From the NCBI GenBank assembly GCA_964520615.1, contig CAZFNL010000137.1, forward strand, positions 7,140 through 71,139: 64,000 bases of DNA, given 5' to 3'. Position 1 is the stretch's first letter. Each line of letters begins with the position of its first letter. This document shows positions 33,891 through 61,318 of this stretch, piece by piece. The position numbers and the translations under genes were made by a program. Below the pieces are notes generated by a model. The model was not told the origin of the DNA, did no database searches, and saw only the letters and a list, made by a program, of their open reading frames with translations. This DNA is from an uncultured Gammaproteobacteria bacterium (lineage in GTDB: Bacteria > Patescibacteriota > Microgenomatia > 2-02-FULL-39-11).

Positions 33891-34566
33891 CTTTGCCTGT
33901 AATCATTGCAAAAGGAGTTTTTAAGAGAATTTTTACATCATACCATAAAGAGCGATGATTTACATAATCCGCATCCATGGCTATTCTTTTATCAAAATTA
34001 ACCTCTGATCGCCCGGATACTTGCCAATAACCTGTAATACCGGGTCTTATTGACAATACTTTTTTAACTAGATCTCTTGTTTTGGGATATTTTTTTTGCT
34101 GGTTTACTAGTTCATCAGGATAATAAGCCCTAGGCCCCACTAAACTCATATCTCCACAAAGCACATTAAGAAGCTGAGGAATTTCATCCAGAGAATGTTT
34201 TCTTATCATTTTTCCTAAAGAGGTGACACGAGGATCTTCTTTCAATTTATAACTGTTTTTTTTATATTGTTCATAAAGCAATCTCAATTTTGGATCCTTT
34301 CGTAACATCTGGTGAGCATTGACTACCATGGAACGAAATTTATACATCTTAAATAATTTTCCCTGCCTACCTACCCTCTCGGGAGTATCGGCAAATACAG
34401 GTCCCTCCGAATCCATCTTGATTGCGAAAGCCAAAATTAGACATATTGGCGAAAATAAAACAAGCAGTACTAAAGAGCCAACGATATCAATAAATCTTTT
34501 GAGGGTATTATCGTATAAATCGTATCTGAATATATTCATAAACCGACTTTCCCGAACTAACTTCAA
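33880..34566 (-). CDS. Polyprenyl-phosphate sugar phosphotransferase (bacterial sugar transferase family, PglC/WbaP C-domain type). Priming enzyme.
   Basis: KRFIDIVGSLVLLVLFSP ... FKMYKFRSM ... DEIPQLLNVLCGDMSLVGPR ... ITGYWQVSGRS signature. Confidence 0.85.
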   Translation of the reverse strand: MKLVRESRFMNIFRYDLYDNTLKRFIDIVGSLVLLVLFSPICLILAFAIKMDSEGPVFADTPERVGRQGKLFKMYKFRSMVVNAHQMLRKDPKLRLLYEQYKKNSYKLKEDPRVTSLGKMIRKHSLDEIPQLLNVLCGDMSLVGPRAYYPDELVNQQKKYPKTRDLVKKVLSIRPGITGYWQVSGRSEVNFDKRIAMDADYVNHRSLWYDVKILLKTPFAMITGKGAV

Positions 34567-40303: not shown

Positions 40304-43300
40304 TTAATTTTTCGGAAGTTTACCATCAGGTACCAATTGAATTATGACATATTTATTTGTCAAATAGGCTATTTTGTATTTTCTTTTTGCAGGATCTGCA
40401 ATTTGAGCTTCTGCCATCAGCTGTTTTGTAAGATCGTCAAAATTGACGCTTACATAGTAATCTGCGCCCATATTAATCATTTTGTCAATTGATTCCTGCA
40501 TCACCGGCCAACCGGCTCTGTGTGTTTGATAAAGAAATGCTGTATCTCCGTCATATGGTGCAATAACCAAAGCGCTTTGGGGAGTCTTGGTGTCAACAGC
40601 TCTTCCGGCCTCCACAATTTCCGGGTGATTAATATTGTAATAGTCCCTGACAAAATACCAGCCGAACATTTCAGTAAATACAATCGTCACTCCGATAAGA
40701 CCAAAAACCAGTATTCCTGAACGGTATTTCCTTCCCATATCGGCAAAAAAGGTTATGCCTTTTGCCACAAATACCGCAATTATAGGAACAGTCAATATCT
40801 GGTAATAATCATGCCGTACGTTGCCTGTAGCAAAAACAGTGACATATGCCAATATTGCAATTCCCCACAAGTAAAAAAGAAACTTGTCCTTTTTGATAGG
40901 AGCAAGAATTCCAAGTATCAAAAAAGGTAAACCCCAATATCCCAAAATCAGTCTGGACAATCGGTCTGCAAAAAGCCAGTAGAAAAATGCACCCTTAAAT
41001 CTGATGCCGTCGCCGTTGAGAAGCCAAAGATTGGCTGGTACTCCTTCAGGAAAATGACTTATCCACCACCGCCACCATCCTAGAGGCAGCGAAGATATAC
41101 CAAAAAATAATACGAGTCCTAAAAAAGATTTAACAGAAAATCCCATTTTCCTGACCCAAAGATAAGACATCGGAAGGAAAAGAAATACCGCATACGGTTT
41201 TACCAAAAGTGCAGCAGCTGTGAAGACGCCCGCCAAAAATAGGTAGAGTATCACCTTCACGATTTCTACAATCCTTTTTTCTCCTGAAAGTTTTAATTTC
41301 TGCTTTGAATCTAAAAATAGATCAAGAAACCAAATCATGCCAATAGAAGTACATACTAGAAGCGGATCAGGCAGTATAGTGCGGGTAAAAAAAATGTTAT
41401 ATGGAAGAAAAGCAAAAACAGCAGCTGCTATTGCGGCTTCTCTTCTTCCCAGGTATTTCCTGACAAGAAGAAAAAGAAATATTATTGATCCCAAAGTGGC
41501 AAAGATCGAAGTTAATCTGCCGGAAACTTCTATATTCCAACCGACAAATATTTTATCGGTTACTACACTCAATACGTTGTATAAAGGGAATTCCACAAAA
41601 CGCAGTCCCTTGGGATTGTTTTTCCCAGAGGCCACATTGGAAAGATCATCGTATGTGGGAAAAAGTATATTAATCCCGTGCTTTACATAATTTCTAGTAA
41701 CAGCAGAAGTATCAGCCTGTCGCCATGAATGCCAATCAGCAAGAGGCTCATCTATCTTGTACAGTCTGACGGTAAACGCAAAAACCAGTATGACAAGAAG
41801 TATGAATTTATCGCTTTTTATGAAACTAACTGATTTATGGATTAGACCTGATATAAACTCGCTCAAATCCGGTATTCTCGGGAAAGGGATCTCTCTTTTT
41901 CTCTCTTTTCTCAACATTTCCACTCCAGCTAAGACAAATCCCGTTATACCCCAAAACATAAATGCTACCTTTGACGATTCGAAAACATCAATATATAGAG
42001 CGTTAACCATAAGCCCCATTAGCAATCCGGCAAACCCGATGTTTATACTGAATATAAAGGGATCAGCAAAGAGATTCAGATTACGCCAAATGATAAATAC
42101 GATAAAAAGCAGAGTTCCGAAAAACGTAATAAAACCCAAAACTCCAGTCTCACCCAAATTCCTCAAAAAATCATTATCTGTTGATTCCGCTTCTGTAAAT
42201 TGTGTTGGCTGAGTCTTATTTAATGTTGAATATCCGCTACCCAAAAGCGGGTTTCGTTCAAAACCTTTTATCGCCATTGGCCATAAAGCGTCAAATCTTA
42301 TGGCCGTTGATAAGTCGTATATAAAGGCCGTTTTGGAATAAGTACGAGGAACAGCCGCAAGAGAAGCGCTATTTGTACCCGTGGGCACCATAAGCGGTAT
42401 ATTCTTATAGACATCAATTGGCCGGTCTGGAGTGGGAGGCTGGTCACTTGATGAAGTGATTTGAGAAAGAGCTGCGTTTGGATTATTCTCCAAAAAGACG
42501 GCTTTGTCGGGCGGAGGCGGAGCACCAAGAGGAGTCAGAAGAAGTGATTTTACACCTGAAAGACGCTCATCAATCCTGAGAAATTTAGTAAATCTCTCAG
42601 ACAGATCACCAAAAGACAGCATTACTAGAATAGAAAGAAATATAACCGTAAACCAACGGGTAAGAGACCAGGACATTCCCTTTTTATATGCCCAAAAGAA
42701 GAATATGACAGTGATGCCAAATAGATATGCGATAAAAGAAGTTCTTGAGGCAGTCAGTATAAGCGTCCAAAAGGCGGCAGAGATTGTTAGAAATATCAAC
42801 AGTTTCAGTAATTTTCTTTTAACACCAAAAAACAAACTCCAAAGAAGCACCAACGCCATCATAATATAAGCTGCCAGATCATAGTGGCCCCCAAAAGTTG
42901 AAAGAACTCTTGCATGAGGAGTCAGATAAAGCATCCAACCCTTAGCAAATTCCCGGTTCATTGTCGAAAATGCAGGCCAGTAAAGATATCTTTGACCGAA
43001 GCCGTATATCGAAACAGCAACCACAGTAACAATAATAAGACCAATATATATCTTCAACTGCTTCAGACTTCTGACAGAAGAATAAAATATGAAAAAAAGG
43101 GAAAAGTACTCTATCCGTCTAGCGTAATGTAAAAACATCTTTTCAAGGTGTAATGGTATTAAAGGTACTGTATGCAGAAGAAAAACTGCAGATAGCATGG
43201 AGAGTACTCCTACTACAAGATAGGCTAATATCGGCTTAAAAAGAGGATTACCGGACAATCTTGTCTTCCCTCGTACCAACCACACTACCCACAGGAAAAC

Positions 43301-43486
43301 ACAAAAGCTGACTATGAAATCTTCCAGTCTGACTCTGACAATATAACCCGGGAGTATATCCCCGATGGGCAATTTAGGATAAAGAGGTATGAAAACCAAA
43401 AGAAAACCTGCTAATACTGAAAGGATGTTATCATCCAACCAACTTAAAAGCTTTGACATATAGTGAAAAACGCCTGGAGTTGCCAC
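40304..43486 (-). CDS. 1060-aa fusion of an O-antigen-ligase/polymerase-like domain (Wzy_C) with a GT-C ArnT/PMT-like glycosyltransferase domain.
   Basis: The N-terminal half has ~12 TM segments and the Wzy_C terminal signature DNDFLRNLGETGVLGFI, then a Pro-rich linker (GAPPPPDK...QPPTPDRP). The C-terminal half reads LVFAFTVRLYKIDEPLADWHSWRQADTSAVTRNY plus ~11 TM segments, typical of PMT_2/GT39-like GT-C enzymes. Confidence 0.6.
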   Translation of the reverse strand: MATPGVFHYMSKLLSWLDDNILSVLAGFLLVFIPLYPKLPIGDILPGYIVRVRLEDFIVSFCVFLWVVWLVRGKTRLSGNPLFKPILAYLVVGVLSMLSAVFLLHTVPLIPLHLEKMFLHYARRIEYFSLFFIFYSSVRSLKQLKIYIGLIIVTVVAVSIYGFGQRYLYWPAFSTMNREFAKGWMLYLTPHARVLSTFGGHYDLAAYIMMALVLLWSLFFGVKRKLLKLLIFLTISAAFWTLILTASRTSFIAYLFGITVIFFFWAYKKGMSWSLTRWFTVIFLSILVMLSFGDLSERFTKFLRIDERLSGVKSLLLTPLGAPPPPDKAVFLENNPNAALSQITSSSDQPPTPDRPIDVYKNIPLMVPTGTNSASLAAVPRTYSKTAFIYDLSTAIRFDALWPMAIKGFERNPLLGSGYSTLNKTQPTQFTEAESTDNDFLRNLGETGVLGFITFFGTLLFIVFIIWRNLNLFADPFIFSINIGFAGLLMGLMVNALYIDVFESSKVAFMFWGITGFVLAGVEMLRKERKREIPFPRIPDLSEFISGLIHKSVSFIKSDKFILLVILVFAFTVRLYKIDEPLADWHSWRQADTSAVTRNYVKHGINILFPTYDDLSNVASGKNNPKGLRFVEFPLYNVLSVVTDKIFVGWNIEVSGRLTSIFATLGSIIFLFLLVRKYLGRREAAIAAAVFAFLPYNIFFTRTILPDPLLVCTSIGMIWFLDLFLDSKQKLKLSGEKRIVEIVKVILYLFLAGVFTAAALLVKPYAVFLFLPMSYLWVRKMGFSVKSFLGLVLFFGISSLPLGWWRWWISHFPEGVPANLWLLNGDGIRFKGAFFYWLFADRLSRLILGYWGLPFLILGILAPIKKDKFLFYLWGIAILAYVTVFATGNVRHDYYQILTVPIIAVFVAKGITFFADMGRKYRSGILVFGLIGVTIVFTEMFGWYFVRDYYNINHPEIVEAGRAVDTKTPQSALVIAPYDGDTAFLYQTHRAGWPVMQESIDKMINMGADYYVSVNFDDLTKQLMAEAQIADPAKRKYKIAYLTNKYVIIQLVPDGKLPKN

Positions 43487-48100: not shown

Positions 48101-49516
48101 TCATTTTTTATCATACACGTATATAAAACCCACTCCCGGAAAATCCTTTGTAGATGTCAGACTATATCCCTCTTTGGATAAGTCTTTTCCTGTCTTATTT
48201 TCATTGTCAGTCAGACCAGTCAAGTACTGAAATAAAAATATTCTGTTTTTACCGGTTATCTGATTATTCATCTTGGCAATGTCTGAATCACGGATTATAA
48301 ATTTTGGAGCTATACCTACCCCCTCCACGTTACCCTTCTGATACCAAAGAAATGGAGCAAATGGAGTTGGGAAGACAAAAAGAGCTACACTGTCTTTAGT
48401 AGCATTCTTTTCCGCATAGGAGACAGCCTGCCTCCATTCTTCCCGTTGGGTATAGGGATCAGTATAATACTGGTAGATTCCGCCAAAACTTGTCGAAAGC
48501 ACAATCAAGAAGAAAATCGCCATGGAAAATTTTGGCAGACTGAGCACTCCTTCCGCAATAATAAGAAGAAAAAACGGGAGAAGATATATCAGCCTCTGTG
48601 GCGCGGCAACAGGTATAAAAATCGATATTACCAAAGCTGGAAGAAAAGAAAATGAAAACAAGGTCAATAAAATTCTGCCTGTTTCCTTTTGGGACAAGCA
48701 ATAAACGGAAATAAGAAATACGATTATTTCAGGAAATATAATAAAACCGTATAGAACTTTATCGGCTACTGTCCCGTGCCCTAAGGCAAATTTCGCCAAA
48801 GTCAAAGGTAGAAGCTTTAACCATGGTACTGAAACCACACTGGTCCATCCGGCAAATCCACCTCCTGTACCCAAGTGAATTTGGTTTATAAAATACGGTA
48901 ACCAGGGTAAAAAGGTAAAAGAAGCAATAATAAATGATTTTATTAGTCGCATGAGAGATTTCCGTCTAAAAATTAAAACATAGATAAAATGCCCAAAAAG
49001 AAGAAAAGGGGCAAAATAAAGACTATAAAGAAGTAGAATTATCTCCAGGGTGTATATCATCCATTTCTCTATAAGAAGGAAATAGGTAGAAACAAGTGAC
49101 AGAAGAACAAAAAGCATATATGGTCTTGCTTCCTGTGAATACCATAAATGGAATGGAGATATTGCCAGAAACAAAGCAGCCAAAACTGCAGTTTTTTTAT
49201 CAAAAATAATTTCTGCTATTCTGTAAAGGAAAAAAATGCTTAAAACGCCAAAAATAACTGATGGCAGGCGGAGCCATATTTCCGATTTTCCGAAAATCAT
49301 CCAAAAATGGAGTATCAAATGATAAAGTGGAGGATGAAAATCGGAAATTATATTAAGCTGTTCTCTCAAAGGTCTAGCTGATTCAATCGCCTGCGCAGCT
49401 TCATCCAACCAAAAGGACTGGTTCAAATTGGCCAGACGCAAAACAAGAGCAAGAAAAAGTATAGCAGGAAGGTTAAATATCTTATTTAATCGTGTTAATA
49501 GAGGTTTAGATTTCAT
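48101..49516 (-). CDS. GT-C fold glycosyltransferase, ArnT/PMT_2 (GT39/GT83-like) family.
   Basis: LRLANLNQSFWLDEAAQA ... DFHPPLYH ... LRLPSVIFGVLSIFFLYRIA N-terminal signature with ~11 TM segments. Confidence 0.7.
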   Translation of the reverse strand: MKSKPLLTRLNKIFNLPAILFLALVLRLANLNQSFWLDEAAQAIESARPLREQLNIISDFHPPLYHLILHFWMIFGKSEIWLRLPSVIFGVLSIFFLYRIAEIIFDKKTAVLAALFLAISPFHLWYSQEARPYMLFVLLSLVSTYFLLIEKWMIYTLEIILLLYSLYFAPFLLFGHFIYVLIFRRKSLMRLIKSFIIASFTFLPWLPYFINQIHLGTGGGFAGWTSVVSVPWLKLLPLTLAKFALGHGTVADKVLYGFIIFPEIIVFLISVYCLSQKETGRILLTLFSFSFLPALVISIFIPVAAPQRLIYLLPFFLLIIAEGVLSLPKFSMAIFFLIVLSTSFGGIYQYYTDPYTQREEWRQAVSYAEKNATKDSVALFVFPTPFAPFLWYQKGNVEGVGIAPKFIIRDSDIAKMNNQITGKNRIFLFQYLTGLTDNENKTGKDLSKEGYSLTSTKDFPGVGFIYVYDKK

Positions 49517-50373
49517 TTATATTTTGCTTCACCCGCAAATGATCTGCAAATGCTGACGTAAATTCCGCAATAATACACCAGCGCAAAAATCAGAAACCGT
49601 AATTCACGGTATATTAATATGATAAAAATCCCCCTAATTGATTGGATAATAAAGTTAAAACGTAAAAGGCTTACTATCCGTCGCAGAATATTTCCTGAAA
49701 TAAATTCATTTTTACCTATCCATCTTGCCTGTATATAGACCTCATTAAGTGTTGACGGATTTTTATGATAGCAAACGGCATTTTCTGCTATTCCCGCTTT
49801 ATACCCGAGTTTCCTTGACAGAGTCCAGTCGTCTGTAAAACCGATATTGTCAAACCCACCGGCCCTTTCAAATTCAGACTTTTTCAGAGCTCTGAATACT
49901 GGAGAATTATCGGGATAATCTGAAGGAATTCTCCTACTGTCTCCTATTCCCTGGTTATAATTCCAACATCTTGCCCAGACGTTATCCCAATTTGAAACAT
50001 ACTCCTCTTTGGTAAATGTACCTTTTAATTTTCCCTCATAAATCGGTTTCACAAGATTCTCTATAAATTTTCCGTCGAAGGTCATATCAGCATCAATAAA
50101 AACCAACACTTCACCTGACGCCGCTTTTGCTCCCAAATTGCGAGCTTTGGCCGGACCTTGATGAGTCTGGGAAATGAAGATTATATTTTTAAGTCTGTTT
50201 CCCAGTTTTTGCATCATTTCTTTAGCTTTTTCTAAAGAATTATCATCTGATCCATCATCAACAAGAATCAACTCAATTCTTTTAGAAATGGATTGTTCTG
50301 AGATTGAAAACAAACAATCCGATAAGACACTGCGTTCGTTATAGAAGACTATCACTACAGATATCATTTCCAT
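49513..50373 (-). CDS. Glycosyltransferase family 2 (GT-A).
   Basis: ISVVIVFYNERSVLSDCL ... ELILVDDGSDDNS ... IDADM. Confidence 0.75.
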   Translation of the reverse strand: MEMISVVIVFYNERSVLSDCLFSISEQSISKRIELILVDDGSDDNSLEKAKEMMQKLGNRLKNIIFISQTHQGPAKARNLGAKAASGEVLVFIDADMTFDGKFIENLVKPIYEGKLKGTFTKEEYVSNWDNVWARCWNYNQGIGDSRRIPSDYPDNSPVFRALKKSEFERAGGFDNIGFTDDWTLSRKLGYKAGIAENAVCYHKNPSTLNEVYIQARWIGKNEFISGNILRRIVSLLRFNFIIQSIRGIFIILIYRELRFLIFALVYYCGIYVSICRSFAGEAKYK

Positions 50374-51489: not shown

Positions 51490-52301
51490 AACTTTCTCTT
51501 GACCTTCTTTAGGGGTGTCACAAATCCTGCCTGAATTTCAAAATCTATAGCTCTTTTTCCTAAAACATCGGGCACGATTTGAGGATGGTCTTGAAAAAAG
51601 ACATCGGGAATGCTTTCTTTACTTGGAATTTTATTACCCGTTTCTATTTTATATTTACGCCGGTGAAATGTTTCTTTCAGGTTCTTTCCCAAAGAAGATC
51701 TAGAAAGATACATCGCATGAAAAAGATGTTTTCTGGTAAACATGTACTTTGTTTCTTCATGATGGGTTAATTCTACGCCGAAATTATCGTAATAACCCTC
51801 ATATGGATAAGTACCCTCTATATGTAATCCATCTATATTTCTTCTATTTATTAGACGCAAGGCAAAATGACCTCGTCTGCCAAAAAGATTATATTGTCCC
51901 GCCGATTCATCCTGAAAATGATAGATATCTCCCAAAAGGTCATATCGACCCACCGCAATCCCTTCTAATTTCGAGCCATAACTCTCAATAATTTCTATTA
52001 TCTCCTGACAGAGTTCATCCGTATAAATCTCATCACCATCCACCACCCAAATCCATTCTGTTTTGGTTTTCTCAATCTGTTCCTGTCTTATCTTCCCTAT
52101 ATATTTAGGATCATTTACAACTTTTGATTCAAACTTTATCCTCTTATCCCTGAAAGAATTTATGATATCTATTGTCTTATCCTGGGAACCGGTATCACAG
52201 ATTAATATTCTTTCTGCAAGATGAAGTACTGAAGAAAGTGCATACCAGATAAACCTGTCTTCATTTTTCACCACCATATGAATAGTAATATCCGGATTCA
52301 T
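51471..52301 (-). CDS. Glycosyltransferase family 2 (GT-A).
   Basis: ITIHMVVKNEDRFIWYALSSV ... ICDTGSQDKT ... VVDGDE. Confidence 0.7.
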   Translation of the reverse strand: MNPDITIHMVVKNEDRFIWYALSSVLHLAERILICDTGSQDKTIDIINSFRDKRIKFESKVVNDPKYIGKIRQEQIEKTKTEWIWVVDGDEIYTDELCQEIIEIIESYGSKLEGIAVGRYDLLGDIYHFQDESAGQYNLFGRRGHFALRLINRRNIDGLHIEGTYPYEGYYDNFGVELTHHEETKYMFTRKHLFHAMYLSRSSLGKNLKETFHRRKYKIETGNKIPSKESIPDVFFQDHPQIVPDVLGKRAIDFEIQAGFVTPLKKVKRKLWSINA

Positions 52302-53608
52302 AGGGAGTTTTTTTTGTTTCCAATTTTTCGGTAGTAATAAAAACTCATTATCGAAGTGAGAAAAAGTGTTATACCAAAAGCTAAAATAAGCGATATGGCC
52401 GGGCCCAACTTTCCGTATCTCGGGATAAACACTAGATTACCCGCAATTACAATAAAAAGCTGCAGGACGCTATTTGCGGTGATGATAAAAGGCTTACGCA
52501 AATAATAAATAGCCAAAGCTACTGAAGGGATTGATCCTACAAAAAACATCATAGCCACAAGTAAAAGCTGTAATACAGTTACGGCCGGCCCTCCCTTATC
52601 CGCGCCAAACAGAGTCACCATAAAAGGTTTGGCAACAATAATAAGGAGAATATTCGTACTCATAATTGCCAGTGTTGCCAATATCACCTTATATATATAT
52701 TTATTTATTGATTTACGATCAGTTGCAGACGAAAGACGAGGAGCAATCACGGTTGAAAAACTGCCCGTTAAAAGAGGGTAGACTGATATTATTCTTGAAG
52801 CCGTGGAATAAATCCCGGCCTGAACCGGACTGGTCATGGCTATAAGCATCAAAACGTCAAGCCGGCTGGCGATTGCAGTCAGGCCGCGCGCAATACCTAT
52901 AAAATAAGAGAATGACACAAATTTCCGCAATTCACCCGGAATTTTCTTAAATTTTAGAAATTCGACATCCACAAAAATAAAAGCTATGATAGCCGTTACC
53001 AAGAGATAAAAAACGTGAATCCATAAGACATTCTGCAGAAATACCATAGAGAAAAGTATCAGACTTACTAGTAACACCACTCTCATAAGACTACTAAAAG
53101 CTGAAAGGAAAGCCACCTGAAGAAACTTTTGTCTAGCTGAGAGTACATAAGTAAAAAATGTACCCATAATATTGAAAAATATCGCCAGAGTCGTAATTTT
53201 CACCAGCAGATCAAGCTTCACACTGTGGAAAAGGATATTGGCAATCGCATAAGAAAAAATAAATAATACCGCCGTGACTACCAAAGCAATAACAGTCTGC
53301 AATATGAAAGCCACTTTAAGAACGCTAAAAAAGCGCTTTTTATCATCTTCTAAAGGTGGCAGGAATGCCGATAAGGTACTGCCGATTCCGGTATCTGAGA
53401 CATCCGTTACCAGCATCATAAAGGAAAGTAGAGCTGAAAAGTAGCCGAAATCCGCCAGACTGACATTCCTGACAAGGGTAACAGTAAAAACAAAGGCCAG
53501 AAATGCCGACAAACCGTTGCCTACAAAAATCATATAAGTATTCATTGCCGTTTTGGACAGAAAAAGAGGAGTCAAGCGTTCTGTGATTATCTTATTAAAA
53601 CTTTTCAT
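52298..53608 (-). CDS. wzx: Polysaccharide biosynthesis protein / oligosaccharide flippase (Wzx, MOP superfamily).
   Basis: 436 aa, ~12 TM segments, typical Wzx/RfbX N-terminal region. Confidence 0.7.
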   Translation of the reverse strand: MKSFNKIITERLTPLFLSKTAMNTYMIFVGNGLSAFLAFVFTVTLVRNVSLADFGYFSALLSFMMLVTDVSDTGIGSTLSAFLPPLEDDKKRFFSVLKVAFILQTVIALVVTAVLFIFSYAIANILFHSVKLDLLVKITTLAIFFNIMGTFFTYVLSARQKFLQVAFLSAFSSLMRVVLLVSLILFSMVFLQNVLWIHVFYLLVTAIIAFIFVDVEFLKFKKIPGELRKFVSFSYFIGIARGLTAIASRLDVLMLIAMTSPVQAGIYSTASRIISVYPLLTGSFSTVIAPRLSSATDRKSINKYIYKVILATLAIMSTNILLIIVAKPFMVTLFGADKGGPAVTVLQLLLVAMMFFVGSIPSVALAIYYLRKPFIITANSVLQLFIVIAGNLVFIPRYGKLGPAISLILAFGITLFLTSIMSFYYYRKIGNKKNSL

Positions 53609-54834
53609 TGATATTTTTGAAAAACTTTAGCAACTCTGGTGATATCGTCTTCTGACAACGAAGTGCCTGATGGCAGATTGACGCCGTGTGCCGAGAGATA
53701 GATACTTTGAGCAAAATCTCCGAATTGTTTGTAGGGGGGAAGCGTTGAGACTGGATAAAAAAATGGTCTTGTTTCTATATTCTCTTTTTGCAATATATCC
53801 ATCATTTCGTCTCTTGTTTTCTGGTACGGTCTATCGATTAAAACGGAATACATCCAGTAAACGCCTTTCGACCAAGACAGTTTAGGCGCAAGAAATATGC
53901 CTTTTATCCCCTTCAAATATTTCTCATAACAACGAGCAATTTCTCTTTTTTTAGCAATCAGCTTTTCTATCCTTTCAAACTGAGCCATTCCGATTGCCGC
54001 CTGCATATTTGTCATCCGGTAATTAAAACCAATAACGTCATAATAATATCTTTTATCTGGATTTTGTCCGTGATCACGCAGGATTCTCATTTTTTGAGCC
54101 AGTTTTTCATCATCTGTTACCACCATTCCACCCTCTCCTGTAGTTATAATTTTATTTCCGTAAAAGCTGAAACAGCCAACTTTGCCCAGACTTCCAACTT
54201 TTCTCCATTCATAATCCTTAATTCTTAATTCTTGATTCTTGATTCTTAATTTCCCGCCATCAGGCGATATTCTACTGTGTCTGGACATACTTCTTGATTC
54301 ATTATTCATAATTCCTAATTCATGTTTCTTGACTCTCACTTCCGCTCCATGAGCCTCAGCCGCATCTTCGATAATGACTAAATTATTATTTTTGGCAATA
54401 TCAAGCAACCTCCCCATATCGGCCGGCTGGCCGTAAAGATGAACCGGCATTACCACTTTCGTTCTCTTTGTTATGGCTTTCTCTACAGCTGTCGGATTCA
54501 TTCCCCAAGTTTCTCTATCAACATCCACAAAAACCGGTTTTGCTCCGGTATAACGCACCACGTTTGCCGAAGCAACAAATGTCAAATTGGGAACAATGAC
54601 TTCGTCACCCGGTCCTAATCCCAACGCTGAGATGGCCAAATGCAATGCAGTAGTACCGTTTGATGTCGCCACTCCAAATCTAACCCCTATATATTTGGCA
54701 AAATTATATTCAAACTTTTTGATATATTCACCTTTTGAAGAGATCCACGACGAATCAAAACAGTCCAATAAATATTTCCTTTCATTGCCGCCTGTCAAAT
54801 CAGGATAGGAAACAGGAATAAATGGTTTGTTCAT
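53605..54834 (-). CDS. DegT/DnrJ/EryC1/StrS-family sugar aminotransferase carrying a ~45-aa in-frame low-complexity insertion before the catalytic-lysine region.
   Basis: GDEVIVPNLTFVASAN, IEDAAEAHGAE and CFSFYGNKIITTGEGG. The insertion VRVKKHELGIMNNESRSMSRHSRISPDGGKLRIKNQELRIKDYEW is encoded by degenerate heptanucleotide repeats. Confidence 0.8.
   Translation of the reverse strand: MNKPFIPVSYPDLTGGNERKYLLDCFDSSWISSKGEYIKKFEYNFAKYIGVRFGVATSNGTTALHLAISALGLGPGDEVIVPNLTFVASANVVRYTGAKPVFVDVDRETWGMNPTAVEKAITKRTKVVMPVHLYGQPADMGRLLDIAKNNNLVIIEDAAEAHGAEVRVKKHELGIMNNESRSMSRHSRISPDGGKLRIKNQELRIKDYEWRKVGSLGKVGCFSFYGNKIITTGEGGMVVTDDEKLAQKMRILRDHGQNPDKRYYYDVIGFNYRMTNMQAAIGMAQFERIEKLIAKKREIARCYEKYLKGIKGIFLAPKLSWSKGVYWMYSVLIDRPYQKTRDEMMDILQKENIETRPFFYPVSTLPPYKQFGDFAQSIYLSAHGVNLPSGTSLSEDDITRVAKVFQKYQ
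54213..54325. repeat. Two blocks of degenerate heptanucleotide tandem repeats (RATTCTT x6 at 54213-54254, TTCWTNA x5 at 54291-54325) inside the DegT gene.
   Basis: Read directly: aatcctt aattctt aattctt gattctt gattctt aatttcc, then ttcttga ttcatta ttcataa ttcctaa ttcatgt. Confidence 0.65.
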
Positions 54835-56417
54835 TATTTAGTTCCAAGAACGTAAATTTGCATTGTGCCAAAATTATTTTGAGCTATGATTCTATTCTCC
54901 AAAAGATAACTCAACTTTATATTTTCCCATTTAGAGAGTGTTTTCGCATCTTCCCGTGGATCTATGAGCGACAAAAGCACAGTCAAATTTGTGTTTTTAA
55001 TTCTTCCGGTTGGATAAAGCCAGCCAAAATAACTGTCCATATAGGAACTCACGGGTACACCTGCAAAATGGCCAAAAAGATATCTGTATCCACCAAATCT
55101 CGGACATTCTCCTACCGCTTCAAGAGAATAATTTCCTGCTGTCACATATTTTTTGGCAAAATTTACCGCCCCCATCTTCTCCTCATAAGGGAAACTGAAA
55201 CTAGCCGTAAAAAGTGATACCAGATTAAAAACGGCAAAAATCAGTGAAATCGATATAACCGAAATCCTGCCGTATTGATTTTGAGCTATATGATCAAGGA
55301 TTCTACCCAAAAGTATGGCCAGCCAGGGAAAAACAAATAAAAAGTAATATTCAAAAACTCCCCTGGTATAAAATACTGTAAACAGCAATGACAGGAAAAA
55401 AATAAAAACTATTACTCTGGAACCGGCAGAAAGTTCTACGGGTGGTTCCTTTCTTTTCCTTTTTAACACTTTCTCTACAAAAACATCGGCCCGGTATAAA
55501 TAAACAGTCAGAATCAGAAATAGAACTATAAAACCCAAAAGTATATCATCTTTTTTGTAACCTATGAGGCTAACGCATTGACCCGATTGCAAAGACAAAT
55601 CAGCAGCAAAGGGCAAAAGAACAAACCTGCCGACTGAGGATAAAAATATATTATTTCTTTGCAAAAATGTCTGTGTATTATTGGATTTTGCCGAAATGAC
55701 GGAGAATGCCGCCCTGGTATTGATAAAATTATGCCGAACTTCAAAAAATATTTGGGGCAATTGCAGGAGTATAAAAATCACAAGTGACCAAACAATAAGC
55801 CGCCTTCCCAATAATTTCCTTTTCTTAAATATGACGTAGACGACAAGAGGAAAAAATATAAGAAGAGAGAGATGTATATGAAATGATAAGCCTAGAAGTA
55901 CAGCCAGCCAAATAACAGATTTCTTGCTACTTTGCAAAAGACGAAAAGAAAAGAATCCGATAAGCAAAGAGAAAAGAGGCACAAACATGGGATTCCAGAA
56001 TTGTCTGTCATAAAATGCGGCTAGCATGGAACTCCCGTAAATAAATGACGCAAAAAGTCCGGTTTTCCCGTCATACATTCTTTTCCCCACAATGTAAATA
56101 GTAATTGTAGTTAAAATCCCCAATAACGACGCTGTTATACTCCAACCCAATGGATTGCCTCCTGACAGGAAAAAAGGTATGGCGGCAAAGTAGATAAAAA
56201 ATGGCCCAAGGTAAAGGCCGGTATCTGAGGCATTCACGCCAATCAGTGGAAAATGGTGACCGGTGACAATATTTTGGGATAGAAATGCTTCATATGCTTG
56301 ATCCATCCCGAAAAACTGCCATTGGTATAGATGATAAAATCTGAAAAATATTGCTATGATTAACGCAATTCCTAGCAATATATATTCCTTGTGGGATTTA
56401 TGCGGCTTTTTTATCAT
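54834..56417 (-). CDS. GT-C fold glycosyltransferase, ArnT/PMT_2-like.
   Basis: FFRFYHLYQWQFFGMDQAYEAF ... N-terminal loop motif with ~12 TM segments. Confidence 0.6.
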   Translation of the reverse strand: MIKKPHKSHKEYILLGIALIIAIFFRFYHLYQWQFFGMDQAYEAFLSQNIVTGHHFPLIGVNASDTGLYLGPFFIYFAAIPFFLSGGNPLGWSITASLLGILTTITIYIVGKRMYDGKTGLFASFIYGSSMLAAFYDRQFWNPMFVPLFSLLIGFFSFRLLQSSKKSVIWLAVLLGLSFHIHLSLLIFFPLVVYVIFKKRKLLGRRLIVWSLVIFILLQLPQIFFEVRHNFINTRAAFSVISAKSNNTQTFLQRNNIFLSSVGRFVLLPFAADLSLQSGQCVSLIGYKKDDILLGFIVLFLILTVYLYRADVFVEKVLKRKRKEPPVELSAGSRVIVFIFFLSLLFTVFYTRGVFEYYFLFVFPWLAILLGRILDHIAQNQYGRISVISISLIFAVFNLVSLFTASFSFPYEEKMGAVNFAKKYVTAGNYSLEAVGECPRFGGYRYLFGHFAGVPVSSYMDSYFGWLYPTGRIKNTNLTVLLSLIDPREDAKTLSKWENIKLSYLLENRIIAQNNFGTMQIYVLGTK

Positions 56418-58011
56418 TCGAATAACTGTTATATTTTATCAGAAATAATCCCATACAGATAATATATAACCCAAACAAGAAAACAACCCCATTTCCCTTC
56501 AACAGTGCCGGCTTATATTGACTGACCTGAAGAAGAAAAGTTGTAAAATTTGCAAAACTATAGTAGGTTTTCGCCACGGTGTATAAAGCAAATAAGTCAA
56601 GAAGTAGCATCAAATTTACCGCGAGCTTAACCATTTTATTCTGCAAGCTGGTTTTGGATGGAATTAAAGATTTTATTCCAATAAGGATAAATAACATATC
56701 AGAAGATATCAGAGGAAAAAAGTATCTTCCTTGAACACCAAGTTGAAATCCAGAGGTATACCAGGACATCCAATCGTAAGACGAAACTCCCATAAAGAAA
56801 ATAATATTGATAAAAATAAGGAAAAAGATAGCCTGTACTCTTCTTTCCAACCATCCTTTCCCGCGAAAAATAGTAACAAGATAAATCCCAAATCCCAGAA
56901 TTGAAATTGCCGTTAAGATATTTATTATTCTATGAACCACCCTCGGATAAGTGACGCCAAGCCAGTCATAAACTCCCCAATACCAGGGTAAAACCTCTTT
57001 ATAGGTATGAGAAACTGTATATTCGCGGAAAAATTTAACATAACTTGCAGGATTTAACTTCTGTAAAAAAACCAATATTTGTGCCGATATTGAGCTTTTC
57101 ATGTATAAAAATGAAACAATCAGCGCAGCCACCAGTAGAAGAAATGGTCGAACAAAAGACTGATGCCATACCTTTTTCATATCCCTGGCAAAAGCTTCTG
57201 CCAATAAAACAATAACGGCAGGAATCATCACAATAAACTGCGGCTTGGTATATAAGGAAAGAAATACGACTGTCAGAAGAATAATAAGTTTCCTGACGGT
57301 CAATCCATTTATAATAGTCTCGGAAACAAGAAGGATAAAAAAAGTGAAAAGAAAATTACCCAAAGAATCACTGTTAACACCGACATTTGAGAAAACCATC
57401 ATCGGTTGAAATGCGACCAGCGCCGCCAAAGTTATAGCGCTTAATCTATCCTTTGGAAAAAAAAGGGCACCAATCCTATATGTCAGATAAACCGTACTTG
57501 CGAAAATCAAAATTGACCACAGACGTACAGCATAAACCCTGACAAACAAACTATATCCCTGGAAAATTTTATAAACCAAACTTGCAGGAAAGTAATAAAG
57601 TATGGGATAAATGGTAGACTCACGGTGGACAAATGTTGATTGTGCTGAAGTTTTTGCTAAAGATGCTATACTAGCTTCATATTTTCCCTCCAGAGAATTT
57701 GTGAATTCAATTTTGTAATCAGGATGAAAAGTAAAAAGGTTATTTCCTGATTTATCTCTTGCTGTTCCCAAAAGTTTTTCTGATATATTAATTTCCTTAT
57801 TAAGGTTATATTTTTCTGTATAGTTAGGATTTCTTCCTTTTTGCGCAACAAATGCCACCTGCCCAAAATGAGCTTGTTCGTCCGGGAACTGCCAGAGGGG
57901 AACAATTATAATCCAAATTAAGGCATTAAATAATACTGCTGCGAAAAAAACCAGGTTATGTTTGGAATTAATCAAGTTTAACTTTTTGGAAATCTTATTA
58001 AATAATTTCAT
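56398..58011 (-). CDS. Polytopic membrane protein, GT-C-like (DUF2142-like PDEQxH loop motif). Putative glycosyltransferase.
   Basis: VPLWQFPDEQAHFGQVAF in the first extracytoplasmic loop, ~12 TM segments. Overlaps both flanking GT-C genes. Confidence 0.45.
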   Translation of the reverse strand: MKLFNKISKKLNLINSKHNLVFFAAVLFNALIWIIIVPLWQFPDEQAHFGQVAFVAQKGRNPNYTEKYNLNKEINISEKLLGTARDKSGNNLFTFHPDYKIEFTNSLEGKYEASIASLAKTSAQSTFVHRESTIYPILYYFPASLVYKIFQGYSLFVRVYAVRLWSILIFASTVYLTYRIGALFFPKDRLSAITLAALVAFQPMMVFSNVGVNSDSLGNFLFTFFILLVSETIINGLTVRKLIILLTVVFLSLYTKPQFIVMIPAVIVLLAEAFARDMKKVWHQSFVRPFLLLVAALIVSFLYMKSSISAQILVFLQKLNPASYVKFFREYTVSHTYKEVLPWYWGVYDWLGVTYPRVVHRIINILTAISILGFGIYLVTIFRGKGWLERRVQAIFFLIFINIIFFMGVSSYDWMSWYTSGFQLGVQGRYFFPLISSDMLFILIGIKSLIPSKTSLQNKMVKLAVNLMLLLDLFALYTVAKTYYSFANFTTFLLQVSQYKPALLKGNGVVFLFGLYIICMGLFLIKYNSYSNDKKAA

Positions 58012-60346
58012 ACATATCCCAGTAAATATCGTTTCGGGAACTGATTACTTTTTTCGAATATTCATTATTTCCCAATATATCAAATATTTTTGTCTTATCC
58101 CTCAATTTATCAAATCTTTTTACAGATGTACCATAAGTACTAATTAACACAAATTTGATGCGGTTTTTTTTATAAAAACTGTAAATATCCGAAAAATTTG
58201 ATGATTCGAAAACTGGATAAAAAAGCGATAATCCTCCCCCATATTCCACGTTATAAGTCTGCAAACCGGAATAATAAGAAAGTCCGCTAGGTGTACCAAA
58301 TACAACAATTCTATCTCCTAAGTGAGAATGACTTGCCAAATATGGTACCACTGTTGTACTTTGCCCCCAATAGTCAAACAACATATTTTGTTCCCTTTTA
58401 GTAAAGTTCAGTAGATTTATACCCCCTGATACGGCAATGAATATATAACCATATAATATTAAAATCGCTGCAGGAACTATTTTTTTCAAATAAAGTCTAT
58501 CAGACATAGCACCAATAACTACAACCGTAATCGACAGAAGAAAGGCTAAAATTATCATGAGGGGTATATCGCTTGGTGAAATTGATACGCGTGAGGCTAA
58601 AATATATAATGATCTAAGAACAACTTCTAATATGTCGTTTGGGATTTTAATTAAATCTGAAAAATGAGATTTCACCTCAGGAACCAATGCTTCACCGATT
58701 TGAAAATTAACGCCGTATTTTTGCACGGAATACCTTAATGTATTGTTTCCAATAGAATATGACCAGAAATTCCACAAAAGAAATTTGGATGAAAGAAAGT
58801 GAAAAAATACTCCTGCATATACTATATTTTCCACCATTTTTCTCCTGACAGACAATTTTTTTAGACCGTCTAATATCAACACTGCCAGAAAAGGAATTAC
58901 AGGTAGAAGCCACTTGGTATCAGCAGCACCTAAAAAAAGCACCCACCAGCTGTACCAGACAAAAAAAATATATACTGGGAGAAATTTAATTCCTCGGGAA
59001 AATCCTTTTAACACTCCTGTAATCTTCGGCAATAACCAAAAGACTGCTAGAGAAGAACCGAATATAAACGTAAGCGTCTCAAATGGAATACCTCCTTTTC
59101 CCACAACACCAATTGAACTGCCAATACTGGAAGCCCAATTATAACTTAATTTTTGTGAGGTAAAATTTCCAAAAAATAAATAATTTCGCAAAATAAAAAT
59201 AAACCCGGAAAGTGAAATCATCGCGGAAGCAACTAACTTGTAAAAATCTTTTTTATCGCTGTATATATTTATCCTCACTGACCAGAAAGCCATAAACAGC
59301 AAAACGGCAAAAAATATTCCAAAGGCAAAGCCCTGCGGTACAGTGTAAGGTTCTCCCTTAAAAAATATTTTGAGAAGAAATGGAACAAAAGGAACAGATA
59401 AATACAGAATTTTCCCCTTCCCTCTAAAGTATCTGAAGACGCCTAACCCAAAAACCAAGGCATAGAGGAATATCGCCTGGTATTTGATAAGAAGAGATGC
59501 TCCAAGAGATAAACCCAATAGTGCATATATTATCCATGAATATTTTTTCCTATGAGAAGAAATTAATTTCAACATAAACCAGAAACAGAACAAAGATAAA
59601 AAGGCAAAAATAAAATCGGGATAGAAACCGGCTTCAAATATAAATCCTTCCAGAAAAGGAATGACCAGTATAATTAGGACCCCTAAAAGTGAATATTCAC
59701 TAGGAAAGAAAAGGCTGAATATATAGTAGCTGAATAATAAAATACCTAGAAAGTAGGGAATATTGATAAATCTAAAAACTTCACCAAATATATTCCCTGA
59801 AATTGTATAGTAATAGGCAAAAAACGACGGTCCCCCCACGGGAGGAATTGCAAAAGGACTACCGTCATAATAGTTATATGCCGGAATTTTATCTGCCATG
59901 ACAATTGACCTTGCCAAAGGCAGGTAGCTATCGACAACATCGCTGTCAACTACCGGCCTGAGCGTAAAAATGAGGAGGAAAACCAATATAAAAATACCTA
60001 GAAAAAGGTATGTAACTTTGTTTCCCGAAAGTATTTTCGTCTTATTGTCACAGGTTTTAATACCTTTGCTAATCACGGAAAATAATAAATCCTTAAGCGT
60101 CACAATAGTTAATAAAACCAAAATGGCAAATAGAATCCTGGAGGTTACGATAAATCCTCTTGGAAAAACAATTCCCCAAAAACTTGAGAAAAGAACTGTA
60201 AAAGATGTGGTTGCAACAAGTGATAAACATAGTTTTAACAGAACTGAATATCTCTTTAATCTGGCAACACGGTTTAACACAGGATAAGCACCAAATATAA
60301 ATGACAAGGGAATAATAAACATGAGAATACTTTCCATATCTTTCAT
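57998..60346 (-). CDS. Large (782 aa) polytopic membrane protein, GT-C-like putative glycosyltransferase.
   Basis: More than 14 TM segments. An acidic first-loop motif (RPVVDSDVVDSYLPLARSIV) resembles the GT-C DxD/DExD loop. Confidence 0.45.
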   Translation of the reverse strand: MKDMESILMFIIPLSFIFGAYPVLNRVARLKRYSVLLKLCLSLVATTSFTVLFSSFWGIVFPRGFIVTSRILFAILVLLTIVTLKDLLFSVISKGIKTCDNKTKILSGNKVTYLFLGIFILVFLLIFTLRPVVDSDVVDSYLPLARSIVMADKIPAYNYYDGSPFAIPPVGGPSFFAYYYTISGNIFGEVFRFINIPYFLGILLFSYYIFSLFFPSEYSLLGVLIILVIPFLEGFIFEAGFYPDFIFAFLSLFCFWFMLKLISSHRKKYSWIIYALLGLSLGASLLIKYQAIFLYALVFGLGVFRYFRGKGKILYLSVPFVPFLLKIFFKGEPYTVPQGFAFGIFFAVLLFMAFWSVRINIYSDKKDFYKLVASAMISLSGFIFILRNYLFFGNFTSQKLSYNWASSIGSSIGVVGKGGIPFETLTFIFGSSLAVFWLLPKITGVLKGFSRGIKFLPVYIFFVWYSWWVLFLGAADTKWLLPVIPFLAVLILDGLKKLSVRRKMVENIVYAGVFFHFLSSKFLLWNFWSYSIGNNTLRYSVQKYGVNFQIGEALVPEVKSHFSDLIKIPNDILEVVLRSLYILASRVSISPSDIPLMIILAFLLSITVVVIGAMSDRLYLKKIVPAAILILYGYIFIAVSGGINLLNFTKREQNMLFDYWGQSTTVVPYLASHSHLGDRIVVFGTPSGLSYYSGLQTYNVEYGGGLSLFYPVFESSNFSDIYSFYKKNRIKFVLISTYGTSVKRFDKLRDKTKIFDILGNNEYSKKVISSRNDIYWDMYEII

Positions 60347-60361
60347 GCTTTGCTCTAACTA

Positions 60362-61318
60362 TTAACTTTGACTTAATCTTATTGAAATGCCGGAAAAATA
60401 AGTTATGTAACCCAAACACCAAACGATTGGACCCAGTCTTTCAACAATCCACCCACGAAATGTAAAGGAGTAAACAGGCGGTAAAACTATTTTTACCAGA
60501 CTTAGTATCAGAAACCCTATCGATTTGAGTAGATGGCTAAGTTTATATATTAGCTTTTTCCTGCCATATCTTGCACAGTGTGCCTGACCCGACGCAAAAT
60601 ACCGTTTCAGTCTGTATGATACCCTAGTTTTACTCGGAGGAACTAAATGATAAACTCTAAGACTAGGACTATAATAAAAAATTTCCCCAGATTCTTCCTT
60701 TTCCCAAACTCTTTCAAAAAAACCTGTTTCTTCTCCAACTGATAGTATTTTTCCTTTCATGCCGACTGCTTCCTCAAATCCCCCGAATCGGAGCAAGGTT
60801 GACCGGCAAACAAACATATTTGAACCGGAAAAAGATTCACCTTTGTGCAAATATCTGGATTTGTTTCCCTTAAAATCTGCCTCATAAAGGTCTGAAAACC
60901 ATTTGGGTTTTTGTCCGGAATAAAAAGGTATAATTGGACCACCGATAACCAGAGGATCGGGTTTAATCGAACCAAAGATTTTCAAAGCTGATTCTAACCA
61001 ATTCAAATCGGCTTTTGCGTCATCATCAAGAAAAGTGACAAATTTTCCTTTTGCACTTAAAAGTCCTGTATTTCGTGCTATTCCCAGCCCCAGTCTTTTT
61101 TCCTTAACCAAGTTGATAATATGATTCTTATATCGTCTCTGAAACGACCAGACAACATCACTAGTATTATCTGTTGACCCGTTATTTACCACTATAATTT
61201 CGTAATTTTTCTTTTCCAGTGTCTGGCAGACCAGACTTTCCAATGCCTGTGATAGCAATTCTGACCTGTTATAAGTACATATAATTACGGATAAAAGCAG
61301 GTTGGAATTTCGCTTCAT
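60362..61318 (-). CDS. Glycosyltransferase family 2 (GT-A).
   Basis: LLLSVIICTYNRSELLSQALESLVCQT ... EIIVVNNGSTDNTS ... LDDD. Confidence 0.8.
   Translation of the reverse strand: MKRNSNLLLSVIICTYNRSELLSQALESLVCQTLEKKNYEIIVVNNGSTDNTSDVVWSFQRRYKNHIINLVKEKRLGLGIARNTGLLSAKGKFVTFLDDDAKADLNWLESALKIFGSIKPDPLVIGGPIIPFYSGQKPKWFSDLYEADFKGNKSRYLHKGESFSGSNMFVCRSTLLRFGGFEEAVGMKGKILSVGEETGFFERVWEKEESGEIFYYSPSLRVYHLVPPSKTRVSYRLKRYFASGQAHCARYGRKKLIYKLSHLLKSIGFLILSLVKIVLPPVYSFTFRGWIVERLGPIVWCLGYITYFSGISIRLSQS

What the first reader, a model, noticed from the sequence alone, without database searches (positions are those of the whole stretch)
54834..60346. Three consecutive, mutually overlapping GT-C-like membrane protein genes
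ORFs 54834-56417, 56398-58011 and 57998-60346 overlap by 20 and 14 nt, indicating translational coupling. Each is a polytopic protein (more than 11 TM segments) with a short acidic motif in the first predicted extracytoplasmic loop (GMDQAYEA, FPDEQAHF, VVDSDVVDSY). This resembles the catalytic Asp loops of GT-C enzymes. A triplet of paralogous but diverged GT-C enzymes suggests sequential addition of several sugars from polyprenyl-P donors.
Basis: partly seen in the sequence, partly recalled or inferred. Interest (0 to 1): 0.55.

Follow-up and report, generated by a model that had tools for sequence, protein, structure and literature searches.

The report
Three adjacent GT-C membrane glycosyltransferase genes
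Three back-to-back genes in a large surface-sugar gene cluster of a Patescibacteria (Gottesmanbacteria-like) genome encode three distantly related membrane glycosyltransferases of the GT-C fold; one belongs to a small family with no database annotation, but otherwise this is an ordinary arrangement for these bacteria.

Summary
Three minus-strand ORFs, A (60346-57998, 782 aa), B (58011-56398, 537 aa) and C (56417-54834, 527 aa), overlap by 14 and 20 nt. All three are polytopic and carry the quoted acidic motifs.

All three have the GT-C fold:
- C matches Pfam PMT_2 above threshold.
- B is a DUF2142 protein. Its model's top 23 PDB matches are all GT-C enzymes.

In each family an invariant Asp sits just outside the first core helix. 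No transporter or permease fold scores.

- The genes are remote homologues from three GT-C subfamilies, not recent paralogues.
- A's motif follows its fourth helix, not its first.
- Overlaps are common here (17 of 52 junctions).
- A, B and C are linked in all five A-bearing places (four independent), but an aminotransferase gene separates A from B in the more distant ones. B...C...Wzx is widespread, while A is rare.

Donor and acceptor remain unknown. No clear polyprenyl-phosphate sugar synthase or GtrA flippase lies in the window. En-bloc transfer or polymerisation, as proposed for lactococcal DUF2142 proteins, is a live rival to single-sugar decoration.

The parts
57998..60346 (-). Gene A: 782-aa polytopic GT-C-fold protein from a small unannotated family. 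It has three extra N-terminal helices, a GT-C core and a C-terminal soluble domain.
59924..59959 (-). A motif RPVVDSDVVDSY (aa 130-141): DxD with D134 in 35/36 and D136 in 36/36 relatives, plus Y141 in 36/36. It lies just after the fourth hydrophobic segment, which is the first core helix.
   Evidence: The preceding loop (aa 90-110) has 5 Lys/Arg, which places the motif outside.
58001..58423 (-). A C-terminal alpha/beta domain (aa 642-782), predicted extracytoplasmic.
56398..58011 (-). Gene B: 537-aa DUF2142 protein with the GT-C fold.
   Evidence: PF09913 E 7e-22. 169 homologues found, mostly Gottesmanbacteria. hhalign to the C family 96%, E 4e-9. AF2 pLDDT 86.9. The top 23 Foldseek PDB hits are all GT-C (AglB, EmbC, STT3, ALG9/12/3, Pmt4, PglB, ArnT, AftB).
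57865..57888 (-). B motif FPDEQAHF (aa 42-49). P43, D44, E45, Q46 and H48 are invariant in 28 relatives. It lies just after helix 1.
   Evidence: The N-terminus has 5 Lys/Arg, so the motif is outside.
54834..56417 (-). Gene C: 527-aa PMT_2 (GT39/GT83-like) GT-C protein.
   Evidence: PF13231 36.5 bits against a cut-off of 26.1. 117 homologues, some named 'glycosyltransferase family 39' by NCBI.
56286..56309 (-). C motif GMDQAYEA (aa 37-44). D39 is invariant. Position 41 is Ala here but Glu in 27 of 29 relatives.
   Evidence: The N-terminus has 4 Lys/Arg, so the motif is outside.
57998..58011 (-). 14-nt A/B overlap.
   Evidence: The same overlap is present in L001.
56398..56417 (-). 20-nt B/C overlap.
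   Evidence: B/C overlaps of 17-35 nt occur in L004, L005 and L022, and of 23-26 nt in other loci.
60362..61318 (-). Upstream GT2 (318 aa) with two C-terminal hydrophobic segments. It is a possible but unproven lipid-phosphate sugar synthase.
   Evidence: It is closest to generic GT2 enzymes. ArnC, DPMS and GtrB score only E 1e-5 to 1e-6 over the first ~100 aa. All NCBIfam hits are below cut-off.
53605..54834 (-). DegT-family sugar aminotransferase directly after C.
   Evidence: PF01041 E 3e-121. LegC/PseC-like but below cut-off. Conserved next to A and/or C in related loci.
52298..53608 (-). Wzx-type (Polysacc_synt/MOP) flippase, conserved downstream of B...C.
   Evidence: Present downstream in 25 of 37 evaluable B-family loci.
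48101..49516 (-). A fourth GT-C gene (PMT_2), overlapping an upstream GT2 (49513-50373) by 4 nt.
40304..43486 (-). 1060-aa Wzy_C + PMT_2 fusion. It is a candidate polymerase or ligase carrying a fifth GT-C-like domain.
33880..34566 (-). Small polyprenyl-phosphate phosphoglycosyl transferase (Bac_transf), the initiating enzyme of the cluster.

Best explanation
A, B and C are three different GT-C-fold, lipid-phosphate-sugar-dependent glycosyltransferases. They are co-transcribed inside a glycan cluster of at least 30 kb that uses a Wzx flippase, in a Patescibacteria (Gottesmanbacteria-like) genome.

Each enzyme has its active site on the outer face of the membrane. An invariant Asp just after the first core helix acts on the acceptor, and conserved Lys/Arg residues hold the phosphate of a polyprenyl-linked donor. 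The three enzymes carry out late, extracytoplasmic steps on a surface glycan after the lipid-linked intermediate has been flipped.

Shown: gene structure, GT-C fold, motif conservation, outward-facing prediction, and linkage with Wzx and aminotransferase genes.

Inferred: catalytic roles of the residues, the kind of donor (polyprenyl-P-monosaccharide or polyprenyl-P/PP-oligosaccharide), the acceptor, and the order of action. I lean slightly to single-sugar or short decoration for at least A and C, which are ArnT/PMT-like.
For: Fold and family:
- C matches PMT_2 above threshold and B matches DUF2142.
- Profile comparisons: B vs C 96%, A vs B 94.4%, A vs C 91.9%.
- 13 of 36 A relatives hit PMT_2.

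Active-site features:
- Invariant acidic residues in each family: A D134, D136, D/E233, D244; B D44, E45; C D39.
- Invariant basic residues in A: K288, K441, R/K478, with R387 in 33 of 36.
- A relaxed hhalign places A D134 on C D39.
- The positive-inside rule puts all three motifs outside.

Context:
- The cluster holds a Bac_transf initiating transferase, a Wzx flippase, a Wzy_C-PMT_2 fusion, about 13 GT2/GT4/GT10 genes, methyltransferases, aminotransferases and an acetyltransferase.
- The order A-[DegT]-B-C-[DegT]-Wzx occurs in all five places that carry A. These are the L001/L003 relative (one genome recovered twice), L002, L004, L005 and L022. L002 is cut off within B.
- C lies within 6 kb downstream of B in 28 of 37 evaluable B-family loci, and Wzx lies downstream in 25 of 37.
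- Fusion proteins GT2+DUF2142 (P0088) and GT2+PMT_2 (P0233, P0237) exist.
Against: - No enzyme was assayed, and neither donor nor acceptor can be read from sequence.
- None of the GT2 genes in the window is clearly of the GtrB/ArnC/DPM1 type.
- No GtrA-type flippase is present in the window.
- A GT2 lies directly upstream of B in only 5 of 50 loci.
- C in this lineage has Ala where 27 of 29 relatives have Glu in the motif, so its activity may be altered.
- TM-scores to individual solved GT-C structures are modest (0.3-0.6). Subfamily-level inference is therefore weak.
Confidence: 0.85

Rival explanations
1. The pathway resembles the one proposed for Lactococcus cell-wall polysaccharide. An oligosaccharide is built on polyprenyl-P or polyprenyl-PP and flipped by the adjacent Wzx. 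The GT-C enzymes then handle it en bloc. B (DUF2142, like WpsI) would polymerise the units. C and/or A (like WpsJ) would transfer the product onto a wall polymer or another acceptor. In this reading the enzymes do not add single sugars.
For: - The only functional proposals in print for DUF2142 proteins are WpsI (polymerase) and WpsJ-like transferases. Both use C55-P-oligosaccharide flipped by the Wzx protein WpsG (PMC12599335).
- B...C is tightly linked to a Wzx gene, in 25 of 37 loci.
- No GtrA flippase and no clear GtrB-type synthase is nearby.
- Tandem B-B pairs occur in 12 loci.
Against: - The lactococcal roles are themselves models based largely on genetics and prediction.
- I could not test B's similarity to WpsI or WpsJ here.
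- The cluster already carries a Wzy_C domain protein (40304-43486) that could be the polymerase or ligase.
- A's nearest structures are single-sugar transferases (Pmt4, ArnT, ALG12).
Confidence: 0.3
2. One of the three acts as an oligosaccharyltransferase or protein O-glycosyltransferase that modifies surface proteins such as pilins or S-layer-like proteins. A is the leading candidate because of its AglB-like C-terminal domain. C is the alternative, being PMT/GT39-like. The adjacent sugar-modifying genes would make a bacillosamine-like reducing-end sugar.
For: - The cluster has a pgl-like set: a small Bac_transf transferase, a DegT aminotransferase, a hexapeptide acetyltransferase, GT4/GT2 enzymes and a flippase.
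- NCBI names some C homologues GT39.
Against: - No protein hits the STT3 Pfam or NCBIfam models above noise. C's archaeo_STT3 score is 15.6 against a cut-off of 450.
- The YWG segment after A's last helix is not conserved across the family: W660 in 19 of 36 and D658 in 11 of 36. There is therefore no WWDYG equivalent.
- ArnT and Pmt4 score higher than the oligosaccharyltransferases.
- No acceptor protein has been identified.
Confidence: 0.12
3. The proteins are not glycosyltransferases but transporters or permeases, or Wzy/WaaL-type polymerases or ligases, that merely share a polytopic architecture.
For: They are polytopic membrane proteins in a polysaccharide cluster, and A has no Pfam hit.
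Against: MFS, ABC and other transporter folds and WaaL appear only at probability 0.15 or below and E above 0.1. Every strong hit is GT-C. Pfam and profile evidence agree.
Confidence: 0.03

Closest known systems
ArnT (GT83) and protein O-mannosyltransferases Pmt1/2/4 (GT39), Pfam PMT_2/PMT, GT-C class A
   Same: - C passes the PMT_2 threshold, and 13 of 36 A relatives hit PMT_2.
- There is an invariant Asp after the first core helix and a second acidic loop (A YPD244).
- Conserved Lys/Arg residues are present for the phosphate.
- There is a C-terminal extracytoplasmic domain.
- A DegT aminotransferase sits next to the GT-C gene, which recalls arnB/arnT.
   Different: - Sequence identity is only 11-14%.
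- A has three extra N-terminal helices and about 19 hydrophobic segments.
- There are no MIR domains as in the Pmt enzymes.
- No arnC/arnA/arnD set is present.
- The acceptor is unknown, and Patescibacteria are not known to make lipid A (background knowledge).
- C has DxA instead of the family's DxE motif.
DUF2142 (PF09913) proteins, e.g. lactococcal WpsI / WpsJ-like GT-C enzymes
   Same: B is a full-length DUF2142 match (E 7e-22) with 11-12 helices. It sits in a surface polysaccharide cluster next to a Wzx flippase, as described for wpsG/wpsI/wpsJ (PMC9574508, PMC12599335).
   Different: - The host is Patescibacteria, not Firmicutes.
- No WpsA/WpsB (GacI/GacJ-like) pair or WpsH co-polymerase was recognised.
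- I did not measure direct similarity of B to WpsI.
- The roles of WpsI and WpsJ are proposals.
Three-component extracytoplasmic glycosylation systems (GtrB-type GT2 + GtrA flippase + GT-C; e.g. CsdA/CsdB/CflA, GacI/GacL)
   Same: - A GT-C enzyme is encoded next to a GT2 with C-terminal membrane segments (60362-61318 upstream of A; 49513-50373 upstream of the PMT_2 gene at 48101).
- GT2+GT-C fusion proteins exist among homologues.
   Different: - The GT2s are not recognisably of the GtrB/ArnC type.
- No GtrA is in the window.
- GT2-B adjacency is seen in only 5 of 50 loci.
STT3/PglB/AglB oligosaccharyltransferases (GT66)
   Different: A lacks a conserved WWDYG-like motif and gives no STT3 profile hit. 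ArnT and Pmt rank higher.

Membership tests
GT-C superfamily (fold level) | Polytopic membrane protein whose N-terminal helical module superposes on solved GT-C enzymes | tested here: met
GT-C superfamily (fold level) | Conserved acidic residue(s) in the first extracytoplasmic loop after core helix 1 | tested here: met
   A D134 (35/36) and D136 (36/36); B D44 and E45 (28/28); C D39 (29/29). Outside location follows from the positive-inside rule only. Catalytic function was not tested.
GT-C superfamily (fold level) | Uses a polyprenyl-phosphate-linked sugar donor | not testable with these tools
   This needs biochemistry. Conserved basic residues in A (K288, R387, K441, R/K478) are compatible with it.
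Pfam PMT_2 (PF13231; ArnT/GT39-like) | Score above the gathering threshold (26.1 bits) | tested here: met
   C scores 36.5 bits. The window's A protein gives no hit (not met for A itself), although 13 of 36 A-family members hit with a best E of 1.3e-11.
Pfam DUF2142 (PF09913) | Full-length match above the gathering threshold (30.1 bits) | tested here: met
   B scores 78.2 bits, covering residues 28-435 against profile positions 2-392 of 395.
STT3/PglB/AglB oligosaccharyltransferase | WWDYG motif in the C-terminal domain and an STT3 profile match | tested here: not met
   There is no STT3 Pfam hit for A, B or C. A's DYWGQ segment is not conserved across the family (W660 in 19/36, D658 in 11/36). 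C scores 15.6 against a cut-off of 450 for archaeo_STT3.
Three-component Gtr-type glycosylation system | GtrB/ArnC/DPM1-type polyprenyl-phosphate GT2 and GtrA flippase encoded with the GT-C | tested here: inconclusive
   Two GT2s have the right size and two C-terminal hydrophobic segments. However, their sequence is closest to generic GT2 enzymes. No GtrA is in the window, and the rest of the genome was not available.
   BLASTP E values are 0.34, 1.9 and 0.71. Only profile-profile methods connect them.

The most novel reading that the evidence does not exclude
Gene A founds a small, unannotated GT-C subfamily, seen so far in Gottesmanbacteria-like Patescibacteria wherever an organism is named. 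It has three extra N-terminal helices and an AglB-like C-terminal domain. It could be a new kind of en-bloc transferase (an oligosaccharyltransferase-like enzyme) that attaches the flipped glycan to a protein or wall acceptor. B and C would then form a Wzy-independent GT-C polymerase/transferase pair like the one proposed in Lactococcus. That would extend GT-C-driven glycan assembly to ultra-small episymbiotic bacteria.
Probability: 0.12. Interest if true: 0.6.

Novelty: new member of a known kind. Interest (0 to 1): 0.3.

Why it matters
Patescibacteria have tiny genomes, yet this one spends at least 30 kb on one surface glycan, including five GT-C domains. These cells live attached to hosts, so their surface sugars probably matter for attachment and for phage recognition.

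The practical gain is annotation. Protein A and its roughly 90 cluster representatives can now be labelled GT-C glycosyltransferases, with candidate catalytic residues D134, D136, D/E233, D244 and K288.

The conserved B...C...Wzx module gives a defined target for testing whether DUF2142 enzymes polymerise, transfer en bloc or decorate. None of this overturns current understanding.

Tried and rejected
- Sequence searches against PDB chains found nothing relevant, either with the single proteins or with family profiles. Only fold comparison linked the proteins to solved GT-C enzymes.
- The transporter/permease reading is rejected, because those folds score only at noise level.
- The oligosaccharyltransferase reading for A is not supported. 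I examined the DYWGQ segment after the last helix as a possible WWDYG equivalent, but it is not conserved across the family.
- I looked for a GtrB/ArnC-type donor synthase among the window's GT2 genes. They are generic, and all fall below NCBIfam cut-offs.
- I looked for GtrA by scanning the window's ORFs of 120 aa or more against Pfam and found none.
- I tested whether a GT2 is regularly upstream of B. It is so in only 5 of 50 loci.
- A genome-collection scan with the 36-sequence A alignment failed for lack of conserved stretches. It worked with a 10-sequence alignment.
- The AlphaFold-database fold library was unavailable.
- No RNA families or tRNAs are in the window.
- A literature search for GT-C in Patescibacteria returned nothing.
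Full report
**Observation.** Read directly, B's ATG lies inside the last codons of A (14-nt overlap) and C's ATG lies inside the last codons of B (20-nt overlap). The quoted motifs translate as stated. Hydropathy scans give about 15-19, 11-12 and 10-12 hydrophobic segments for A, B and C. Overlap is not unusual in this window: 17 of 52 same-strand junctions overlap, 7 of them by at least 10 nt. The overlaps therefore show a compact operon. They are not a special sign of coupling.

**Setting.** Almost every ORF of 120 aa or more in the 64-kb window that has a family match lies on the minus strand. From about 33.9 kb to the end of the window there is one large glycan cluster. It contains:
- a small Bac_transf phosphoglycosyl transferase,
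- a nucleotidyl transferase,
- six GT4 genes, five or six GT2 genes and a GT10-like gene,
- methyltransferases,
- a DegT aminotransferase and a hexapeptide acetyltransferase,
- a Wzx-type flippase,
- a 1060-aa Wzy_C+PMT_2 fusion and a further PMT_2 gene.

Downstream lies the cell-division and wall cluster, from MraZ to FtsZ. Homologues come from Patescibacteria, mainly Candidatus Gottesmanbacteria.

**Family assignment by sequence.**
- C matches Pfam PMT_2 above threshold (36.5 against 26.1 bits), and B matches DUF2142 over its full length (E 7e-22).
- A matches nothing in Pfam or NCBIfam.
- The three are not detectable paralogues by BLASTP (E 0.34-1.9).
- Family profiles do connect them: B with C at 96% (E 4e-9), A with B at 94.4% (E 9e-8), and A with C at 91.9% (E 7e-7).
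- An exhaustive profile search found only 90 representatives of the A family among 1.84 billion clusters. 13 of 36 aligned members hit PMT_2 on their own.

**Family assignment by structure.** AlphaFold models are confident: A has pLDDT 89.5 and pTM 0.93, B has pLDDT 86.9 and pTM 0.89.
- For B, the top 23 Foldseek hits are all GT-C enzymes.
- Transporter folds and WaaL appear only at noise level.
Its assignment rests on Pfam and on the profile link to B.

**Motifs and topology.** The quoted motifs contain the most conserved residues of each family.
- In A, D134 (35/36), D136 (36/36), Y141, P143 and R146 are conserved. So are D/E233, Y242-P243-D244, K288, Q290, R387, K441 and R/K478.
- In B, P43, D44, E45, Q46 and H48 are invariant.
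- In C, D39 is invariant.
- The segments before the relevant helix are rich in Lys/Arg (5, 5 and 4 residues). The positive-inside rule therefore puts all three motifs outside, 5-9 residues past the helix end. This is where GT-C class A enzymes carry their catalytic Asp (background knowledge).
- A relaxed hhalign of the N-terminal parts places A D134 on C D39, at low local confidence.

Two corrections follow. In A the motif comes after the fourth helix, because three extra helices precede the core. In C, this lineage has Ala at position 41 where 27 of 29 relatives have Glu.

**Co-occurrence.**
- The closest relative (A 68% identical) has the same gene order from the DUF268 methyltransferase to the second PMT_2 gene, with the same 14 and 20 nt overlaps.
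- Three further loci with complete genes (L004, L005, L022), whose A proteins are about 31-36% identical where measured, have A, a DegT gene, B, C, sometimes a second DegT, then Wzx. L002 shows A, DegT and the start of B before the contig ends.
- A, B and C are therefore linked in every place that carries A (L002 is cut off within B), but the direct A/B overlap is specific to the window's closest relatives.
- Among 72 distinct metagenomic loci of the B family, 37 have enough downstream sequence to evaluate. Of these, 28 have a C-family gene within 6 kb, 5 have it directly adjacent (overlaps of 23-26 nt or a 12-nt gap), and 25 have Wzx downstream. None of 35 loci with enough upstream sequence has A.
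- Twelve loci have tandem B-B pairs.
- In other loci the space between B and C holds short polytopic ORFs with sub-threshold GT-C hits, often with a hexapeptide acetyltransferase.
- Runs of two or three GT-C genes beside Wzx are thus a recurring feature of these bacteria. B...C...Wzx is the conserved core and A is a rare addition.

**Mechanism.** The best-supported reading is that these are three different GT-C glycosyltransferases acting on the outer face of the membrane, in the late steps of a Wzx-dependent surface glycan pathway. The kind of donor is open.

Points for single sugars from polyprenyl-P carriers:
- A and C are nearest to ArnT, Pmt and ALG12.
- Two GT2 genes have the size and two C-terminal hydrophobic segments typical of lipid-phosphate sugar synthases, and they sit next to GT-C genes.
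- GT2+DUF2142 and GT2+PMT_2 fusion proteins exist.

Points against:
- Those GT2s are closest to generic GT2 enzymes.
- No GtrA flippase is in the window.
- A GT2 lies directly upstream of B in only 5 of 50 loci.

The rival comes from Lactococcus. There the DUF2142 protein WpsI is proposed to polymerise, and the GT-C enzyme WpsJ to transfer, a C55-P-linked oligosaccharide flipped by a Wzx protein (PMC9574508, PMC12599335). The tight linkage of B...C with Wzx fits that model. The cluster also has a Wzy_C domain protein that could serve as polymerase or ligase.

**Novelty and verdict.** PMT_2 and DUF2142 proteins in polysaccharide clusters are known. A is a new, unannotated subfamily of a known fold. 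The words 'paralogous', 'triplet' and 'sequential single-sugar addition' go beyond the evidence. I rate it a new member of a known kind, with modest interest.

Noticed in passing
window 53605-54834 (-), about aa 168-197: The DegT aminotransferase carries a 30-aa in-frame insertion (KKHELGIMNNESRSMSRHSRISPDGGKLRI). It is absent from the 91%-identical orthologue in L001 and from L004. Its flanks look like a partial duplication (VRVKKHEL / LRIKNQEL).
   Followed up: partly
window 56295-56297 (-), C residue 41: C and its closest relative P0125 have Ala where 27 of 29 family members have Glu in the GMDQ-E-YEA motif. This is a lineage-specific loss of a near-invariant acidic residue.
   Followed up: partly
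window 40304-43486 (-): A 1060-aa protein fuses a Wzy_C (O-antigen ligase/polymerase-like) domain to a PMT_2 (GT-C) domain. It has no NCBIfam match.
   Followed up: no
window 48101-50373 (-): A second GT2 + PMT_2 pair overlaps by 4 nt. The GT2 (49513-50373) has two C-terminal hydrophobic segments, which makes it a candidate donor-synthase/GT-C pair. The pair is conserved in L001.
   Followed up: partly
window 1-64000: Nearly all sizeable ORFs with a family match, across 64 kb, lie on the minus strand (GC about 36%). The glycan cluster runs straight into the dcw cell-division cluster (MraZ, MraW, PBP, Mur ligases, MraY, FtsW, MurG, FtsQ/A/Z).
   Followed up: no
L006 9555-10622; L043 2664-3830: In other Microgenomates loci the gap between the B and C genes holds short (355-388 aa) polytopic ORFs with sub-threshold GT-C hits (TMEM260-like E 0.006; PMT_2 E 6e-4). 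Three GT-C-like genes in a row therefore recur with a different third member.
   Followed up: partly
L033 7998-11226, L040, L046, L048 and others: Tandem DUF2142-DUF2142 gene pairs overlap by about 10-20 nt in 12 of 72 distinct B-family loci.
   Followed up: no
window 31935-33890 (-): A 651-aa DUF4012 protein overlaps the initiating phosphoglycosyl transferase gene by 11 nt at the downstream edge of the glycan cluster. Its function is unknown.
   Followed up: no
window 9127-10149 and 10124-11401 (-): A FemAB-family gene and a second DegT-family aminotransferase lie inside the dcw/Mur region and overlap by 26 nt.
   Followed up: no
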